Assembly: GCF_024223415.1 (NCBI RefSeq)
Contig: NZ_CP100500.1
Length of the DNA stretch: 64,000 nucleotides
Source of the DNA: Escherichia coli
GTDB taxonomy: Bacteria > Pseudomonadota > Gammaproteobacteria > Enterobacterales > Enterobacteriaceae
Reading direction: 5' to 3' (one strand)
Shown: piece after piece, positions 3,361 to 61,937 of the stretch
How positions within the stretch are numbered: position 1 is the stretch's first letter
Layout: every line of letters starts with the position of its first letter
The notes under the pieces: generated by a model
What the model saw: only the letters and a program-made list of their open reading frames with translations
What the model was told of the DNA's origin: nothing
The model's database searches: none
Made by a program: the position numbers and the translations under genes

Positions 3361-4287
3361 TCAATTTTCGAGTTTTACTCTTTTCTCCACCATAAAATCA
3401 ATAAAAGCACGAACTTTAGAGGGCATTCTCACCCGTGATGAAACATAAATATAAAATCCAGGAAATGAAACAGCCCAATCCTCAAGAATCGGCTGTAACT
3501 TGCCCGCATTGATATGTTCAGCGATTGCAAAATCCAGATGTTGAATGATACCCGTTCCATTCAGCGCCATTCGTATCATGCTTTCGTCATCATTAGAAAT
3601 ATACTTACCTGAAACCTCTATTTCGAACTCTTCATTACCCCCCACAACATTAGAAAACTCCCATGCAGAGAGTGCACCGCTACTTTTATGCCGCAACCGA
3701 AGGCAATTATGGTTACTCAGTTCCTGAGGCGTTTCAGGAATACCGTGTTCTTTTAAATAATCTGGCGATGCCACAGTAACCAGTTTAATAAGCGGAGAAA
3801 CAGGAACGGCAGTCATATGCTCATCCAGTCCTTGCTCAAGACGTATGCCCACATCACAGCCGTCCGCAATAATGTTAGATAAACCGTCATCCATAATGAG
3901 TTCTATCTTTGTTTTGGGGTAACGAGTAAGAAACTCGCCAATATGAGGCTCAACAAGCATCCGTGCTGCAACACGGGAGGAATTTATTCTCAACAGGCCT
4001 GTAGGTTCAAGTTGGGTATCACCAACATCTTTCAAAGCATCATCAATTTGCCCCAAAGCCGACACCAGCACTTCATACAGACGCTGTCCTTCCTCAGTAA
4101 GCGACATATTGCGGGTCGTACGGTATATCAGCTTGGTGTTAAGACGTTCCTCAAGAGATTTTAAATTCTGGGACAATGCGGCCCGCGTAATACCCATTTC
4201 AGAAGCGGCTCTGGAAAAACTGCCGGCACGAACAATAAGCGCAAACCAGGCAAGAGAAGGCAAAATTGAAGGCTCTATTTTCATCAT
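3361..4287 (-). CDS. LysR-family transcriptional regulator
   Basis: 308-aa ORF with LysR helix-turn-helix and substrate-binding domain; divergent from the hydrolase gene at 4444. Confidence 0.85.
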   Translation of the reverse strand: MMKIEPSILPSLAWFALIVRAGSFSRAASEMGITRAALSQNLKSLEERLNTKLIYRTTRNMSLTEEGQRLYEVLVSALGQIDDALKDVGDTQLEPTGLLRINSSRVAARMLVEPHIGEFLTRYPKTKIELIMDDGLSNIIADGCDVGIRLEQGLDEHMTAVPVSPLIKLVTVASPDYLKEHGIPETPQELSNHNCLRLRHKSSGALSAWEFSNVVGGNEEFEIEVSGKYISNDDESMIRMALNGTGIIQHLDFAIAEHINAGKLQPILEDWAVSFPGFYIYVSSRVRMPSKVRAFIDFMVEKRVKLEN

Positions 4288-4443
4288 TGTAAACCTTAAC
4301 TTAACACTGTGATAGATATTAGATCATTGATGATAACCAATACAAGTCATACTATTACGCCGTTCTCGATATGAACACGAATGCCAGTTGCGGATAATAG
4401 AAATGATATTTAAATCTGTTTAGGCAAATCCCCGGAGCTTGAA

Positions 4444-5364
4444 ATGAAAACTGTTTCGATAAAACACACTTACTGGGATATAGCTGCTGATATCTATTTC
4501 CCTGACGATTTTAATAGTGAAAAAAAGTATCCTGCCATTATCAGCGCCCATCCAATTGGAAGCTGCAAAGAACAGACATCGGGTAGTGTGTATGGTGCCG
4601 CCCTGGCAAAAGCTGGCTTTATCGTCATTGCTTTTGATGCCAGTTTTCAGGGAAGCAGCGGTGGGGAACCGCGTTATCTGGAAGATCCAACAATGCGAGT
4701 AAAAGACTTCAGCATTGTCGTTGATTACCTTACCAGCTTACCTTACGTTGATGCCGGGCGTATTGGTGTACTGGGTATTTGTGGTGGAGGTGGATATGCC
4801 ATTAATGCCGCAATGACAGAACGTCGAATTAAAGCTATTGGTACTGTCACGGGTGCAAACTACGGGCGTCTTATGCGTGAGGGATTTACAGCGTTTAATC
4901 CTATCGGAGCACTCGAAGCAATGGCGCAACAAAGAACAGACGAAGCTAACGGCGCAAAACTTCGCGTAGATGATTTACTCCCCTCTTCTCCGGATGCAGC
5001 TCTTGAAGCGGGATTAACAGAAATAGACCTTTTTGAAGCCACAGAATATTATCGTTCGCCACGAGGCTGTGCACCTAATGGGGTAAATCGTTCGCTATTC
5101 TCACATCAGACTGTTGCCGTGGGTTGGGATGCATTTCATCTTGCAGAAGTGCTGTTAACTCAACCAATAATGGTTGTGGTGGGCGATAGAGTGGGCGCAT
5201 TTGGTGCCTACCGTGACGGCTGCGAAATTATTGGCCGCGCTGCCTCAAAACATAAAGAGCTGGTCGTGGTTGAAGGTTATTCACATTACGACCTGTATGA
5301 TAAGCCAGAACCTGTGAAACAGGCACTCGATAAATTAATTCCTTTTTATAAAACACATTTGTAA
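4444..5364 (+). CDS. alpha/beta hydrolase (dienelactone-hydrolase-like), no signal peptide
   Basis: 306-aa ORF with IGVLGICGGGGYAINAAM nucleophile-elbow region and KELVVVEGYSHYDLYD C-terminal motif; homologous to the ORF at 24130-25266. Confidence 0.8.
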   Translation: MKTVSIKHTYWDIAADIYFPDDFNSEKKYPAIISAHPIGSCKEQTSGSVYGAALAKAGFIVIAFDASFQGSSGGEPRYLEDPTMRVKDFSIVVDYLTSLPYVDAGRIGVLGICGGGGYAINAAMTERRIKAIGTVTGANYGRLMREGFTAFNPIGALEAMAQQRTDEANGAKLRVDDLLPSSPDAALEAGLTEIDLFEATEYYRSPRGCAPNGVNRSLFSHQTVAVGWDAFHLAEVLLTQPIMVVVGDRVGAFGAYRDGCEIIGRAASKHKELVVVEGYSHYDLYDKPEPVKQALDKLIPFYKTHL

Positions 5365-8081: not shown

Positions 8082-9096
8082 TTTAAAATTCGACGAATTA
8101 ACGATATTTGTCTGATTAATAATCAGACCGGATTAATGTTGGTGTATTTATTACACCAGCATTAATTTTCCTGGGGATGTATCTTCCTGTTCATTTAAGG
8201 TCAACTGCCTGACGTTTCTCTCCGAATATTCCATTATATTAATGTTGACTTGTTGACCAGCTTCGCCCCTGTATGCTGGCATCAACCCTCTTTTAGACTG
8301 AACACGCCACTCAGTTTCCTCCCTTTGCGACGCAGCCTGCATTTACACTCAAACTGTTAAGATGATAAATGTGGTAAATCTGTTGGTACTGACATAAAAA
8401 CGTTTACGCCACAGGAACGGCCTGATCCACCGGTAACCCCATCGCCGACGTTCGAGTGCCAGTTAGAGTAACGCGCACAGATGACTGAATGCAGTGCCCT
8501 GGCAAAGAGGCCATCGTTCCTGTGACAACTGGCAGTCTTCGTTTAACTTCACTTAATTTGGCTCTTAGGGGGCTTACCGGACAGATGACATACTTACACC
8601 TGTTTAATTTTTCATCACTTATTGGGATGAACACCCATAACCATTTTGTGCGGCATGTTAATCCATTAAAACACCTTACTGATTGGCAAATCATCTTTAA
8701 TTATGACTCATGATAGTTTTATATTCTATTTCTTATCATTTAAACTTGTTTTTTTACTAGTCCATTACACAACATATTAAGACTATTCCTAACACCTCAG
8801 GGCAAAGTTCCTGGCTAATATAAAATGCAAGTAAGAATTGAACGTTATATTGCCAATAACCTTATGAAACTGAATGTCTTTTTCTTCTTATCAAAAAAGC
8901 AATATTTTCATTTTTTGTAAATATTGACTTAACCATGGAATTCATTTTCTGTTCACATATTGACACTCATCAGGAAAAAAACATAAATTTAAACCTAATC
9001 GAAATAATTAAAACTTAATCTCGTTTAACCTATATTGATATGTGCTACGTATCTTATTTACTTCCGATTTACTAAAGAAACTGAATGTACCTGTAA

Positions 9097-9708
<612 letters not shown>

Positions 9709-51479: not shown

Positions 51480-51849
51480 TCCTGCGACCACTTTTATCAT
51501 AGGAGTGTGGAAGTGCTTTTCCATCAATCGCGATGACGTCTTTGTCATTTGATGAATGGCAGTCACGCATCCAGTTAATAAAGCACTCGTGAAATTTTGC
51601 AGGACTGATACAGGATACAACTCTGGCAATGGTATCGTGAACAGGGATACCATTTTCAAAATCACCATATTGTTTTAAAAAATCGAGATGTGTTTCCCCA
51701 AAATCCTCTATATCTTCCCAACCTTCTACACCAGAAATAACGGCACAAATAGTCAACAGAAGAATATCTGACAATTTATGTTCCACTTTCCAGGCTTGAC
51801 TGTAATCGGGAATAATAGAAATATGTTCCATCAATTTTTTAAGTTCCAT
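51480..51849 (-). mobile_element. H-repeat (ISAs1-family) transposase N-terminal fragment
   Basis: N-terminal ~120 residues ([40 protein letters not shown]...) match H-repeat-associated proteins; similarity is lost after about residue 123 and the ORF runs into the yafV 3' end. Has its own AAGGAG ribosome-binding site. Confidence 0.7.
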
Positions 51850-52152
51850 TTTTTCTCCTTATTTATGTAAGGAGTATTTGATCATGTATAAGCAATAAAA
51901 AACAGCTTCAGGTAATGAGGAATATCTCAATTTTTAAACATAAAATGCGAATTATTTAGTATAAAAAGTGTACTTCTGATGATCTTTCCCTGGATTTACA
52001 TTAGGTTGGTTATTTTCCATACCCACAACTATATTTTCTCTCTGAATTTAATACGTGCAAGACAATCGCAGCACTCTAACTGACTTCGATGTGATTTGAT
52101 GTTCAGAAAAATCCCTCATTAGATTATTATCATGAAATACAGCCAATTATCT

Positions 52153-53103
52153 TTAGTTTTTATATTTCTCAATATATTCTTTTGAAAGGATTCGCGCCTT
52201 TTCAAACTCTTCAGGAGTTAATCTATTTTCCATCTTCAATTTATATTGAACACTTTTATCAAGTCCATGAGCGTATGCGGCACTGAACCAGGCATATGCC
52301 TTTTTATTATCGAGTGGTAACTCTTTCGTGCCTACGGAATAGATTAATGCAAGATTATGTTGTGCAACAGGATCACCATGTGTGGCTGACTTTCTTAACA
52401 GTTCTATTGCTTTATATTTATTTACAGTAATCCCACCCAGTCCTTCATAGTAAAAGATACTTAGTGCTGATTGTGCTTTTATGAAACCTTGACTTGCCGA
52501 TTTATCATACCAAAAGGCGGCTTTATTATAATCCTTTTTAATAATAACGCCTTCATAATAGAGTCGCCCTAAATGATACTGAGCAACCTTATCCCCTTGC
52601 TCCGCAGCGATACGATACCACTTATCTGCCAGATCTTTTTTATTAGTCTCATCATATAGTAAAGCAAGGTTAGTTTGAGCCGTAACTAATCCAGAATTTG
52701 CAGCTTTATTTAACCACGCTATGGCCTTACCATAATCTCTTATCACGCCACTCCCTTTACTATATAATACTCCTAAGTTTCCCTGCGCTTCTGGAAAACC
52801 TTTTTCAGCTGCCATTTGATAACATTCAAATGCTTTTTCATAATTTTGAGACACCCCATAACCATGAGCATACATAACACCGAGGTTATACTGAGCCTCT
52901 GTCAGCCCCTGTTTTGCTGCAAGCGAGTACCAATATACTGCATCTTTATAACTCTGGATTCCTTCAGAACCACTTCGATATAACTCCGCGAGTTTAAATT
53001 GCGCAGTAGCATCTCCCTTATCAGCATCTTTTCTTATATATGTCATTTTATTGGAGGCTGCTGTGTCTTCTGTCACCCCAATTGCAACAGGAATACTCAA
53101 CAC
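52153..53103 (-). CDS. Sel1-repeat (TPR-like) protein; candidate immunity protein for the upstream Rhs toxin
   Basis: About eight tandem ~36-aa Sel1-type repeats (AQxNLGxxYxxGxGVxxDYxKAxxWYxKAA). Low GC, 45 bp downstream of the Rhs stop. Start codon uncertain (GTG at 53103 or internal ATG). Confidence 0.8.
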   Translation of the reverse strand: MLSIPVAIGVTEDTAASNKMTYIRKDADKGDATAQFKLAELYRSGSEGIQSYKDAVYWYSLAAKQGLTEAQYNLGVMYAHGYGVSQNYEKAFECYQMAAEKGFPEAQGNLGVLYSKGSGVIRDYGKAIAWLNKAANSGLVTAQTNLALLYDETNKKDLADKWYRIAAEQGDKVAQYHLGRLYYEGVIIKKDYNKAAFWYDKSASQGFIKAQSALSIFYYEGLGGITVNKYKAIELLRKSATHGDPVAQHNLALIYSVGTKELPLDNKKAYAWFSAAYAHGLDKSVQYKLKMENRLTPEEFEKARILSKEYIEKYKN

Positions 53104-59962: not shown

Positions 59963-60481
59963 TTATGCTTCCAGCGGTGCGCGCCAGTCGTCGGCACCGG
60001 AGGTGCCAGATTTGACGTGTTCCCATTCAATTTTGCGGTAGGCCAGTGAAACTTCGAGCAACTGGGTGAACTCGCGTTTCGCCGGGTCCTGGCAATGCGG
60101 CATATGCAGTTTCATATCGACAATCGTCGAATCAGTCAGGCGGGTAGTGAAATAATGCTCCTGTTTGCCTTCCACAGAGGTACGCCACCAGTGAAGTTCA
60201 GTGGTTGGCAGCATTTCGCCGGAGGCCAGTGCGTTGTACATCAGCGGAACCGCTTTGTTCAGCGCCACGGTAAAAATGAAAGGCTTGTGAGCACGCTGAC
60301 CCGCAGGCTGACCGGACTGAGGATCGGTCGGGACAGTAACGTTATGCAGGAATTCCTGCACCAGCATCTCGTCTTCGTGCCCCTGCACATAGATGTTGCC
60401 GACAGAATCAGCGGTAAATGCACCTGCAGTAATATTTCCCTGGGTCTGACCAGTGATGGAGATATAACACGGTGTTGGCAT
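59963..60481 (-). CDS. hcp: type VI secretion tube protein Hcp
   Basis: 172-aa ORF recognised as Hcp from the translation; directly upstream of vgrG. Confidence 0.9.
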   Translation of the reverse strand: MPTPCYISITGQTQGNITAGAFTADSVGNIYVQGHEDEMLVQEFLHNVTVPTDPQSGQPAGQRAHKPFIFTVALNKAVPLMYNALASGEMLPTTELHWWRTSVEGKQEHYFTTRLTDSTIVDMKLHMPHCQDPAKREFTQLLEVSLAYRKIEWEHVKSGTSGADDWRAPLEA

Positions 60482-61177
60482 TTGTAAACTCCTTGTTAAC
60501 GTGGTTAATTACTACTTACAATGACCTGCCGTTAATCCCAGACAGGCAGATGCAGCTCACTTCACGGAACCGCATCATTTTTCAGTATTTTTTACATACA
60601 AACCGAGCTAGAATTTACGGTTGTCGTAAAAACTATTTTTAAAATCATTAAATCTCTTATTCAGCAATAACTTAATAATATATATCTGGATAACCATACC
60701 CAACTGTTCAAAGTCCGTATTGCCTCCATAAAATGGCCAAAGCTGAATCATGAATAAATATTGTATTTATCCTTTCTGAATTATCATTTTGATAATTTTT
60801 GAGATATTCCTTAAAAATACCCACTTAATCAATCACAAAACAAACATATAAACAAGCAATCATTAGATTAGCTTATGTTTAATAAAATTATTATATAATT
60901 CAATAAGATGCATAAAAAACTCTATATTTAAATTATTGCCATAATACACCTGACGCGAATTGCACAGGTTCATACAATCTATTTAACGCTTGCAGAATAC
61001 CCCTCTTTACGATCGATAAAAAGTCCTTTTATTATTTATTTTGAAGCGTAAAATGCGGGGTGATGAAGGAGTGGTGATTTTATTTTCACCGCCATCAAGG
61101 CGGCATTTCCGATATTTTTTGCGGTACGAATATGCCGTGTTCATGGCCTGTACGAGATAACATGACGGATCACTTTT

Positions 61178-61678
61178 ATGAGCAAAAAATTTGAAGGCAG
61201 CGTCGCGCCTCGCGAGCGTATTAATATATCGTATGTCCCAAAAACAGATGGCCAGACGGCTGAAGTGGAACTTCCGCTTAACATGCTCGTTGTCGGCGAT
61301 ACCGGAAATACGCAGGAAACATCCTCACTGGATGAACGTCAGGCAGTTTCCGTTAACAAGCACAATTTCGGTGCAGTGATGGCTGAAGCAGCCATTGGCC
61401 TCAATTTTACCGTCCCCGCCACGCTGAAGGGAAGCACAACGGACGATGAGCTGAATGTGGCGCTGAATATCAAGTCACTGGATGATTTTTCACCAGATAG
61501 CGTGGCCCGGCAGGTTCCGGAAGTGAATAAATTGCTGGAACTGCGTGAAGCACTGACTGCACTGAAGGGGCCGATGGGTAACCTTCCGGCATTCCGTACC
61601 CAGCTCCAGGCATTGCTGGAAAATGAAGAGTCCCGCGAGCAGTTGCTCAAAGAAATCGGCCAGGTGAGCAATAAATAA
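61178..61678 (+). CDS. tssB: type VI secretion sheath small subunit TssB
   Basis: 166-aa ORF recognised as TssB (VipA family) from the translation. Confidence 0.9.
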   Translation: MSKKFEGSVAPRERINISYVPKTDGQTAEVELPLNMLVVGDTGNTQETSSLDERQAVSVNKHNFGAVMAEAAIGLNFTVPATLKGSTTDDELNVALNIKSLDDFSPDSVARQVPEVNKLLELREALTALKGPMGNLPAFRTQLQALLENEESREQLLKEIGQVSNK

Positions 61679-61712: not shown

Positions 61713-61937
61713 ATGACGGCACACAAAAATATCTCCGGGACATACCACCTCTCTGTTGCAGACATTCTGCAGGTGGTTTACCAGGTATGTTTCAGCCCGT
61801 CCGTTGAAATCAACCAGGATGGTGTGGCTGCGCTGATTACAACACTGGATCGCCGTATCAGTGATCTATTGGATGAGATTATCCATTTTTGTGAGTTTCA
61901 GCAGAGCGCGTCGCACTGGCAGCGCGTACTTCACTGA
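61713..61937 (+). pseudogene. diverged TssC-like internal fragment (74 codons)
   Basis: VAALITTLDRRISDLLDEIIHFCEFQQSASHWQRVL aligns with residues ~65-100 of the downstream TssC (VDSMIADIDERISRQMDVIIHAPAFQQVESFWRSL); different frame, diverged at DNA level. Confidence 0.45.

What the first reader, a model, noticed from the sequence alone, without database searches (positions are those of the whole stretch)
60482..61177. 700-bp AT-rich divergent control region between hcp and tssB with a Fur-like inverted repeat
The intergenic region is strongly AT-rich, the kind of sequence typically silenced by H-NS. At 60779-60797 it contains AATTATCATTTTGATAATT, built from ATTATCA and TGATAAT hexamer-like halves. 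The half-site arrangement differs from the canonical Fur box, so this is low confidence, but iron regulation of E. coli T6SS clusters is documented.
Basis: partly seen in the sequence, partly recalled or inferred. Interest (0 to 1): 0.35.

Follow-up and report, generated by a model that had tools for sequence, protein, structure and literature searches.

The report
Known H-NS-silenced T6SS-2 divergent promoter
The AT-rich gap between hcp and tssB is the already-described, H-NS-silenced two-way promoter of the common E. coli type VI secretion cluster (T6SS-2), and its "Fur-like" palindrome is real sequence but shows no sign of being an iron-regulator binding site.

Summary
A perfect 8-3-8 palindrome, AATTATCATTTTGATAATT, sits at 60779-60797.

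The gap is the published EHEC-type T6SS-2 bidirectional promoter "t6sP". It is 98.9% identical to O157:H7 and present in about 2,230 of 5,426 complete E. coli genomes. T6SS genes there are de-repressed in hns mutants.

The Fur reading is not supported:
- Palindromes this good arise in 20% of shuffles of the gap.
- Its Fur matrix score (10.9-12.3 bits) is what this composition gives by chance (P 0.23-0.43) and lies below typical real sites (median 16).
- The half-sites are everted, so there is no 7-1-7 Fur geometry.
- The palindrome is broken in E. albertii, absent from the sister E. coli variant and other genera, and polymorphic within E. coli.
- Published Fur ChIP-exo in O157:H7 Sakai, which carries the identical palindrome, lists no peak within about 24 kb.

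Documented Fur control of E. coli T6SS concerns T6SS-1, a different cluster. This is ordinary and already known. No fur-mutant or iron reporter test on this variant was found.

The parts
59963..60481 (-). hcp (Hcp tube protein; 'hcp3' of EHEC), first gene of the leftward hcp-vgrG-rhs unit
   Evidence: ORF; Pfam T6SS_HCP 5e-31; same CDS annotated in O157:H7.
60482..61177 (.). 696-bp divergent intergenic control region, equivalent to the published EHEC T6SS-2 bidirectional promoter 't6sP'
   Evidence: Present once per genome in 2,235 of 5,426 complete E. coli genomes at 96.8-99.9% identity, with no annotated feature. 8 of 696 mismatches to Sakai. Described in PMC13141884.
60600..61000 (.). AT-rich core (GC 0.27), the inferred H-NS nucleation and spreading region
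   Evidence: Composition. TpA density 10.3 per 100 bp against 4.9 for the window. The hns-deletion phenotype comes from the literature. Direct H-NS binding is not shown in any source read.
60779..60797 (.). The reported palindrome AATTATCA-TTT-TGATAATT: everted Fur-type heptamers, most likely incidental AT-rich sequence
   Evidence: statistics and Fur matrix. (not conserved, polymorphic at 60786 and 60788). (no Fur ChIP-exo peak in Sakai).
60746..60770 (.). Block conserved in all six cluster variants (60746-60767), containing a second palindrome ATAAATATTGTATTTAT (60754-60770)
   Evidence: Conservation profile; palindrome list.
60760..60787 (-). Predicted sigma-70-like promoter reading toward hcp (-35 ATGATA 60787-60782, -10 TACAAT 60765-60760). 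The -35 lies inside the palindrome and the -10 lies in the conserved block.
   Evidence: Consensus scan, 9 of 12 matches. The scan found 6 sites against 4.4 expected, so this is a prediction only.
60524..60547 (-). Conserved stem-loop in the hcp leader, 43 nt upstream of the start codon; loop GGAUUAA on the mRNA strand
   Evidence: Folds in all six variants with different stem sequences, z from -1.6 to -4.2; alignment. Candidate CsrA site: CsrA repression of hcp3 is cited in PMC13141884.
60489..60494 (-). hcp Shine-Dalgarno AAGGAG, 7 nt from the ATG
   Evidence: Read from the sequence; invariant in six variants.
60992..61054 (+). Conserved tssB-proximal promoter region: blocks GCAGAATACCCCTCTTTA (60992-61009) and ATAAAAAGTCCTTTTAT (61016-61032), and a -10-like TAAAAT (61049-61054) with no good -35
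   Evidence: Conservation across six variants. A61051G (TAGAAT) is a natural variant. Promoter assignment is inferred.
61132..61161 (+). Conserved block ATGCCGTGTTCATGGCCTGTACGAGATAAC in the presumed tssB leader
   Evidence: Conservation profile. Function unknown.
61178..61678 (+). tssB (small sheath subunit), first gene of the rightward structural operon
   Evidence: ORF; Pfam T6SS_VipA 2e-51; annotated tssB in O157:H7.

Best explanation
The 696-bp gap is the bidirectional promoter and regulatory region of the EHEC-type E. coli T6SS-2 cluster. The core promoter elements sit near each gene. A conserved -10-like TAAAAT with conserved upstream blocks lies about 130 bp before tssB. A conserved leader with a stem-loop and a strong ribosome-binding site lies before hcp. 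Between them is about 400 bp of 27%-GC DNA. H-NS most likely polymerises on this DNA and shuts both divergent transcription units, which is why the cluster is silent in laboratory culture and de-repressed in hns mutants. Further control is post-transcriptional (CsrA on the hcp leader, and the hcp-vgrG 'h3R' element). The 19-bp palindrome is part of this AT-rich filler. It arose within the E. coli EHEC-type lineage and is not a Fur operator.

Shown: the anatomy, composition, identity with the published locus, lack of conservation of the palindrome, and absence of a Fur ChIP-exo peak. Inferred: direct H-NS binding, promoter positions, and CsrA binding.
For: Anatomy and composition.

Identity with the published locus: 98.9% to O157:H7. 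PMC13141884 treats exactly this hcp3-tssB gap as the T6SS-2 bidirectional promoter. It reports higher T6SS mRNAs in the hns mutant, and its transcription-factor site prediction found no Fur site. PMC5363993 reports that all tested T6SS genes were up-regulated in EDL933 delta-hns, one of them 60-fold, and complemented. The S. sonnei homologue is described the same way.

Fur matrix built from 16 K-12 Fur promoters: known sites score 9.4-23.2 bits in leave-one-out tests (median 16). The palindrome scores 10.9 bits and the best hit in the gap scores 12.3 bits. Shuffles of the gap give a mean maximum of 10.65 bits, with P(>=12.28)=0.23 and P(>=10.86)=0.43.

7-1-7 geometry: the best match is 10 of 14, which is the mode of shuffles; known Fur promoters have a median of 11 and reach 14.

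Conservation of the palindrome:
- E. albertii: AATCTCAtttTGATAAT
- E. coli 042-type: GCCATCGttcCAGCACG
- E. coli AR13438: ATTGTCActtTGATAAA
- Absent in Yokenella and C. youngae
- Natural SNPs at 60786 and 60788
The promoter-proximal blocks, by contrast, are conserved in all six variants.

Fur ChIP-exo in Sakai: consecutive peaks lie at 193,075 and 288,115. The intact palindrome is at 263,818-263,836. No ECs02xx gene appears in the Fur pan-regulon.
Against: No paper I could read shows H-NS bound directly to this gap; PMC5363993 contains no EMSA.

A match to the H-NS high-affinity motif is no more frequent than in shuffles: 3 hits against 2.3 expected.

The Fur matrix cannot discriminate in this score range. 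The Fur-regulated sci1 promoter scores only 8.3 bits, and the Fur-independent sci2 promoter scores 13.7 bits. The validated sci1 Fur boxes match only 11 and 13 of 19 consensus positions, similar to this site (11-12 of 19).

The ChIP-exo study called its sci1-region peak about 0.76 kb upstream of tssB, not at the mapped Fur boxes. Weak or H-NS-occluded sites could therefore be missed.

The palindrome overlaps the -35 of a predicted hcp-direction promoter, which is where an operator would sit.

The 50 bp around the palindrome is identical in 89% of EHEC-type genomes.
Confidence: 0.8

Rival explanations
1. The palindrome, together with the adjacent 60791-60809 hit, is a weak, non-canonical Fur operator. 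An array of NATWAT hexamers (AATTAT-CATTTT-GATAAT...) overlaps the -35 of a distal hcp promoter. On this reading Fur adds iron repression on top of H-NS silencing, as at the EAEC sci1 T6SS-1 promoter.
For: Two exact Fur heptamers (P=0.056 in shuffles). Two overlapping matrix hits 12 bp apart, in hexamer register, at 10.9 and 12.3 bits; these fall within the range of the weakest real sites (mntH 9.4, tonB 11.4, exbB 12.1 in leave-one-out tests). Overlap with a predicted -35. Validated T6SS-1 Fur boxes are equally poor consensus matches, 11 and 13 of 19, and score even lower on my matrix.
Against: The scores are what the composition gives by chance. A Fur-independent control promoter scores higher. 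The halves are everted with a 3-bp spacer, and the flanks give only 1 of 7 and 3 of 7 matches for a 7-1-7 partner (my reading). The palindrome is not conserved in any other variant and is polymorphic. There is no Fur ChIP-exo peak in Sakai under iron-replete or iron-starved conditions. The sister T6SS-2 variant shows no response to fur deletion or iron limitation, although that variant lacks the palindrome.
Confidence: 0.07
2. The palindrome is the operator, or a preferred nucleation site, for another DNA-binding protein. One candidate is a LysR-type anti-silencer such as LeuO or ArgP, because the palindrome fits the generic T-N11-A dyad. Another is H-NS itself. Either would act on the distal hcp promoter in the EHEC-type lineage only.
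For: It is a perfect dyad overlapping a predicted -35. The right arm TTGATAATTT matches the H-NS high-affinity consensus TCGATAAATT (recalled from memory) at 8 of 10 positions. PMC13141884 predicted ArgP, LeuO, CysB, Fis and other sites somewhere in t6sP. The surrounding 50 bp is identical in 89% of genomes.
Against: The palindrome is no better than chance (P about 0.2). It is unique in the window. It is not conserved outside the lineage and carries SNPs inside it. H-NS-motif density is at the shuffle expectation. The LysR-type resemblance is generic and untested.
Confidence: 0.13

Closest known systems
EHEC O157:H7 EDL933 T6SS-2 bidirectional promoter 't6sP' between hcp3 and tssB (PMC13141884; Kim et al. 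2022, J Microbiol 60:928, cited there but not readable here)
   Same: Same locus. hcp and tssB diverge across 696 bp, and the sequence is 98.9% identical to O157:H7. It is silent in vitro and de-repressed in hns mutants. It is reported to have several transcription start sites.
   Different: Nothing substantive. There are 8 SNPs relative to Sakai, none in the palindrome.
EAEC sci1 (T6SS-1) promoter with overlapping Fur boxes and Dam GATC sites (Brunet et al. 2011, PMC3145626)
   Same: An AT-rich promoter upstream of a tssB gene. Its Fur boxes are also only weak consensus matches, 11 and 13 of 19.
   Different: It is a different T6SS subtype with no sequence similarity to this gap. There, Fur binding was shown by FURTA, EMSA and RNA polymerase competition, and GATC sites overlap the boxes. 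Here there is no Fur ChIP-exo peak. The gap has only two GATC sites, and neither is near the palindrome.
Canonical E. coli Fur box (GATAATGATAATCATTATC; 7-1-7 model TGATAATnATTATCA)
   Same: It contains both exact heptamers. It matches 11-12 of 19 consensus positions when aligned by hexamer periodicity.
   Different: The heptamers are in everted order (ATTATCA-N3-TGATAAT), so no 7-1-7 unit exists. The matrix score of 10.9 bits compares with a median of 16 for real sites.
042/APEC-type T6SS-2 variant (the hcp2B-vipA2 divergent region of APEC TW-XM, PMC5874247)
   Same: Same gene order, a gap of about 700 bp, and conserved promoter-proximal blocks and hcp leader hairpin. It is H-NS-repressed and unaffected by fur deletion or iron limitation.
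   Different: hcp is only about 79% identical at the DNA level and the core of the gap is unalignable. That variant has no palindrome (GCCATCGttcCAGCACG). The APEC primers match the 042 type with 0-1 mismatches, but match this window with 1-5 mismatches or not at all.

Membership tests
Fur operator (Fur box) | Sequence match at the level of known E. coli Fur sites (19-bp matrix) | tested here: not met
   The palindrome scores 10.9 bits and the best hit in the gap scores 12.3 bits. Known sites score a median of 16.0 bits in leave-one-out tests (range 9.4-23.2). P(max>=12.28)=0.23 in shuffles. Caveat: controls show the matrix does not separate weak true sites (sci1, 8.3 bits) from a non-binding promoter (sci2, 13.7 bits).
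Fur operator (Fur box) | Inverted heptamer geometry TGATAAT-n-ATTATCA (7-1-7), singly or overlapping | tested here: not met
   The halves are everted with a 3-bp spacer. The best 7-1-7 match in the gap is 10 of 14, equal to the mode of 1,000 shuffles. Known Fur promoters range 9-14 with a median of 11.
Fur operator (Fur box) | Conservation of the site in orthologous promoters | tested here: not met
   The left arm is broken in E. albertii. The site is absent in the 042-type variant, Yokenella and C. youngae, and degraded in AR13438. SNPs at 60786 and 60788 occur in 3 of 10 sampled E. coli sequences.
Fur operator (Fur box) | Fur occupancy in vivo or in vitro | not testable with these tools
   From the literature: Fur ChIP-exo in O157:H7 Sakai lists no peak between 193,075 and 288,115 under iron-replete or iron-starved conditions. 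The identical palindrome lies at 263,818-263,836 (PMC10164565 Dataset 2). No EMSA exists for this fragment.
Fur operator (Fur box) | Fur- or iron-dependent expression of the flanking genes | not testable with these tools
   No report found for the EHEC-type variant. The sister 042/APEC-type variant showed no effect of fur deletion or iron limitation on hcp2B or clpV2, but it lacks the palindrome. The Sakai delta-fur RNA-seq table was truncated in the stored supplement.
H-NS-silenced, horizontally acquired promoter region | AT content well above the genome average over several hundred bp | tested here: met
   GC is 0.272 over 60600-61000 and 0.328 over the whole gap, against 0.509 for the window. 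TpA steps are twice the window density.
H-NS-silenced, horizontally acquired promoter region | De-repression of the flanking genes when hns is deleted | not testable with these tools
   From the literature, for the 98.9%-identical EDL933 locus: all tested T6SS genes were up-regulated, one of them 60-fold, and the effect was complemented (PMC5363993). Confirmed at the mRNA level in PMC13141884.
H-NS-silenced, horizontally acquired promoter region | Direct H-NS binding to the region | not tested
   No EMSA or ChIP was found in the papers read. High-affinity-motif matches are not enriched: 3 against 2.3 expected.
E. coli T6SS-2 bidirectional promoter (t6sP, EHEC type) | Lies between divergent hcp-vgrG-rhs and tssB-tssC-tssE units and is near-identical in sequence to the EHEC locus | tested here: met
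   Pfam assignments for Hcp, VgrG, Rhs, TssB, TssC and TssE. 96.8-99.9% identity in 2,235 genomes, including O157:H7.

The most novel reading that the evidence does not exclude
The palindrome is a recently gained operator, specific to the EHEC-type lineage, that overlaps the -35 of a distal hcp promoter. It would be bound either by Fur only once H-NS has been displaced, or by an unidentified regulator or anti-silencer. This would give this T6SS-2 variant an input that the 042/APEC-type variant lacks.
Probability: 0.08. Interest if true: 0.3.

Novelty: already known. Interest (0 to 1): 0.1.

Why it matters
What switches on the most prevalent E. coli T6SS is still an open question: published work could not find an inducing condition. 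A genuine Fur input would have been a useful lead. The evidence here removes that lead. It points instead to the elements that are conserved across variants: the tssB-proximal promoter blocks and the hcp leader hairpin. It also flags a pitfall for the field. The published statement that "T6SS2 is Fur-independent" was obtained on a sister variant whose intergenic core differs, and Fur matrices cannot separate weak true sites from AT-rich background in T6SS promoters.

Tried and rejected
- Rfam scan of 60300-61400 at E<=1: no hit.
- Repeat search of the gap: no direct repeats and one weak 13-nt inverted pair.
- Search for the palindrome elsewhere in the window with up to 2 mismatches: none.
- H-NS high-affinity motif enrichment: none.
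- Fur matrix as a decisive test: rejected as inconclusive, because the Fur-independent sci2 control (13.7 bits) outscored the Fur-dependent sci1 control (8.3 bits).
- APEC TW-XM result (no Fur or iron effect on hcp2B and clpV2) as a direct refutation: rejected. The paper's primers match the 042-type variant with 0-1 mismatches, but match this window with 1-5 mismatches or not at all, and that variant lacks the palindrome.
- Kim et al. 2022, which mapped start sites in this promoter, is not held in the library.
- RNAalifold on a MAFFT alignment of the hcp leader misaligned the hairpins of the two other genera and gave noisy pair counts. Single-sequence folds were used instead.
- A sigma-54 promoter at the conserved TGGCCTGTACGAGATA block was considered and rejected by eye, because there is no -12 TTGC element.
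- IHF consensus at the palindrome: at least 2 mismatches on either strand, by eye.
- The protein-pattern scan of genome contigs returned only four related loci, which limits phylogenetic footprinting.

Full report
**1. Observation**

The region is as described. hcp is 59963-60481 (-) and matches Pfam T6SS_HCP. tssB is 61178-61678 (+) and matches T6SS_VipA. vgrG and an Rhs protein lie downstream of hcp, and tssC and tssE lie downstream of tssB.

The gap 60482-61177 is 696 bp. Its GC is 0.328 overall and 0.272 for 60600-61000, against 0.509 for the window. At 60779-60797 the sequence is AATTATCATTTTGATAATT, a perfect palindrome with 8-bp arms and a 3-bp spacer.

The palindrome is not beyond chance. 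A perfect palindrome with arms of at least 8 bp and a spacer of 0-8 bp occurs in 19.6% of 2,000 dinucleotide-preserving shuffles of the gap.

**2. What the region is**

The gap occurs once per genome in 2,235 of 5,426 complete E. coli genomes at 96.8-99.9% identity, including O157:H7, and carries no annotation. The O157:H7 context is rhs-vgrG-hcp on one side and tssB-(hypothetical)-tssC-tssE-tssF-tssG-tagH on the other. O157:H7 Sakai differs from the window at 8 of 696 positions.

This is the E. coli T6SS-2 cluster. Its hcp3-tssB gap has been studied as the bidirectional promoter "t6sP" (PMC13141884). That paper reports the following:
- The cluster is silent in vitro.
- hns deletion raises T6SS mRNAs.
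- No single medium activates either promoter.
[quoted passage not shown] The words Fur and iron do not occur in the text.
- An earlier study, Kim et al. 2022 (not readable here), found several transcription start sites in the divergent promoter.

PMC5363993 showed that all tested T6SS genes were up-regulated in EDL933 delta-hns, one of them 60-fold, with complementation. It did not report a DNA-binding assay. The S. sonnei homologue is described the same way.

**3. Test of the Fur reading: sequence**

I built a 19-bp Fur matrix from 16 Fur-regulated promoter regions of K-12.
- Known sites score 9.4-23.2 bits in leave-one-out tests, with a median of 16.0.
- In the T6SS gap the best hits are 12.28 bits (60791-60809) and 10.86 bits (the palindrome frame).
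- Shuffles of the gap give a mean maximum of 10.65 bits (sd 2.43). P(max>=12.28)=0.23, P(>=10.86)=0.43 and P(>=16)=0.027.

Under the 7-1-7 model the gap's best match is 10 of 14, which is the modal value of shuffles. Known Fur promoters have a median of 11 and reach 14. The two exact heptamers are everted (ATTATCA-N3-TGATAAT), so no 7-1-7 unit is formed. The flanks supply only 1 of 7 and 3 of 7 matches for a partner half-site (my reading).

Controls limit what this can show. The experimentally Fur-bound sci1 promoter of strain 042 (coordinates from PMC3145626) scores only 8.3 bits. The Fur-independent sci2 promoter scores 13.7 bits. The validated sci1 boxes match 11 and 13 of 19 consensus positions. 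Sequence scoring therefore gives no positive support for Fur, but by itself it cannot exclude a weak site.

**4. Test of the Fur reading: conservation**

Loci with the same hcp/tssB arrangement were found in these organisms:
- E. albertii, Yokenella regensburgei and Citrobacter youngae.
- A second E. coli T6SS-2 variant, in which hcp is about 79% identical and the core of the gap is unalignable. About 580 genomes carry it, including strains 042 and AR13438.

In alignments the palindrome reads:
- E. albertii: AATCTCAtttTGATAAT
- E. coli 042: GCCATCGttcCAGCACG
- E. coli AR13438: ATTGTCActtTGATAAA
- Yokenella and C. youngae: nothing comparable

Within the EHEC-type lineage, 10 sampled sequences have 43 variable columns. 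Two of these fall inside the palindrome: A60786G in two sequences and T60788G in one. The 50-bp surround is identical in 89% of genomes.

In contrast, several blocks are conserved across all six variants:
- the hcp ribosome-binding region (60482-60503)
- 60746-60767
- 60992-61009
- 61016-61032
- the -10-like TAAAAT (61049-61054)
- 61132-61161

**5. Test of the Fur reading: experiments in the literature**

PMC5874247 reports that fur deletion and iron limitation did not change hcp2B or clpV2 in APEC TW-XM, whereas hns deletion did. That strain carries the 042-type variant. Its primers match strain 042 with 0-1 mismatches, but match this window with 1-5 mismatches or not at all. The result is therefore only indirect for this sequence.

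More direct evidence comes from the Fur pan-regulon study (PMC10164565), which performed Fur ChIP-exo in O157:H7 Sakai under iron-replete and iron-starved conditions. Its peak list jumps from 193,075 to 288,115. The Sakai T6SS-2 gap is 263,438-264,133, with the intact palindrome at 263,818-263,836. No ECs02xx gene is in the pan-regulon table. Strain 042 likewise has no peak between 194,612 and 329,858.

The same dataset does call peaks in and near the sci1 and aai T6SS clusters of 042. The sci1-region peak (4,852,105) lies about 0.76 kb upstream of tssB rather than at the mapped boxes, so sensitivity to weak sites is imperfect.

Documented Fur control of E. coli T6SS concerns T6SS-1.

**6. Mechanism**

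Best supported (confidence about 0.8): an H-NS-silenced bidirectional promoter. The conserved, probably activator-dependent core elements sit next to each gene, and the AT-rich core acts as the silencing platform. The palindrome is incidental, lineage-specific AT-rich sequence.

Shown: the anatomy, the composition, identity with the studied locus, non-conservation of the palindrome, and no Fur ChIP-exo peak. Inferred: direct H-NS binding and the promoter positions.

Rivals:
- A weak, non-canonical Fur site (about 0.07).
- An operator or nucleation site for another protein, such as H-NS itself or a LysR-type anti-silencer. The palindrome fits a generic T-N11-A dyad and overlaps the -35 of a predicted hcp-direction promoter (about 0.13).

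**7. Verdict**

The control region is real and already known. The Fur-like repeat is real sequence without support for function. Interest is low.

Noticed in passing
window 60524-60547 (minus strand); L019, L020, L003, L004, L005 equivalents: A stem-loop 43 nt upstream of the hcp start codon folds in all six cluster variants, with different stem sequences: CCUGCCA/UGGCAGG, CCCGUCG/CGACGGG and UCUGCCG/CGGCAGA. z-scores range from -1.6 to -4.2. In the E. coli variants the loop is GGAUUAA, and the Shine-Dalgarno sequence is AAGGAG. A GGA in a hairpin loop plus a GGA in the Shine-Dalgarno sequence is the classic layout of a CsrA target. PMC13141884 cites CsrA repression of hcp3.
   Followed up: partly
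window 60992-61054: The tssB-proximal blocks GCAGAATACCCCTCTTTA and ATAAAAAGTCCTTTTAT and a -10-like TAAAAT are conserved across E. coli variants, E. albertii, Yokenella and C. youngae. No acceptable -35 is present, which suggests an activator-dependent promoter. The AAGAATAC..CCT core resembles, from memory only, an RcsB-type box. This was not tested.
   Followed up: partly
L019 (E. coli 042) 3678-4379 and L020 (AR13438) 3683-4364, compared with window 60482-61177: E. coli carries at least two diverged T6SS-2 versions with the same gene order. The EHEC type is in about 2,230 genomes and the 042/APEC type in about 580. hcp is about 79% identical between them and the intergenic core is unalignable. 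Published regulation data for 'T6SS2' in APEC TW-XM refer to the 042 type, not the EHEC type.
   Followed up: yes
L028 299-893 (sci1) and L029 257-722 (sci2) of E. coli 042: A Fur matrix trained on K-12 sites scores the experimentally Fur-bound sci1 T6SS-1 promoter at 8.3 bits and the Fur-independent sci2 promoter at 13.7 bits. Matrix scans for Fur in AT-rich T6SS promoters are unreliable in this range.
   Followed up: yes
window 61056-61105: About 50 bp (CGGGGTGATGAAGGAGTGGTGATTTTATTTTCACCGCCATCAAGGCGGC) in the presumed tssB leader is present in the E. coli and E. albertii variants but absent in Yokenella and C. youngae. It contains short GC-rich hairpins (GGTGA/TCACC and CCGCC/GGCGG). Its role is unknown.
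   Followed up: no
window 61713-61937 and 61988-63463: A 74-aa ORF with no Pfam match lies between tssB and tssC and is annotated 'hypothetical protein' in O157:H7. The longest tssC ORF here is 491 aa, whereas RefSeq annotates 463 aa in O157:H7, so the tssC start is ambiguous. PMC13141884 mentions an earlier claim that tssB and tssC are separate operons.
   Followed up: no
window 4393-4411: The highest Fur-matrix score in the whole window (14.2 bits, GATAATAGAAATGATATTT) lies in the divergent gap between a LysR-family regulator (3361-4287, -) and an alpha/beta hydrolase (4444-5364, +). It is more likely a LysR-type dyad than a Fur box, and it shows how AT-rich dyads mimic Fur sites.
   Followed up: partly
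window 8550-9100 and 51650-52250: Two other stretches have GC of about 0.27-0.31, as low as the T6SS gap. They were not examined.
   Followed up: no
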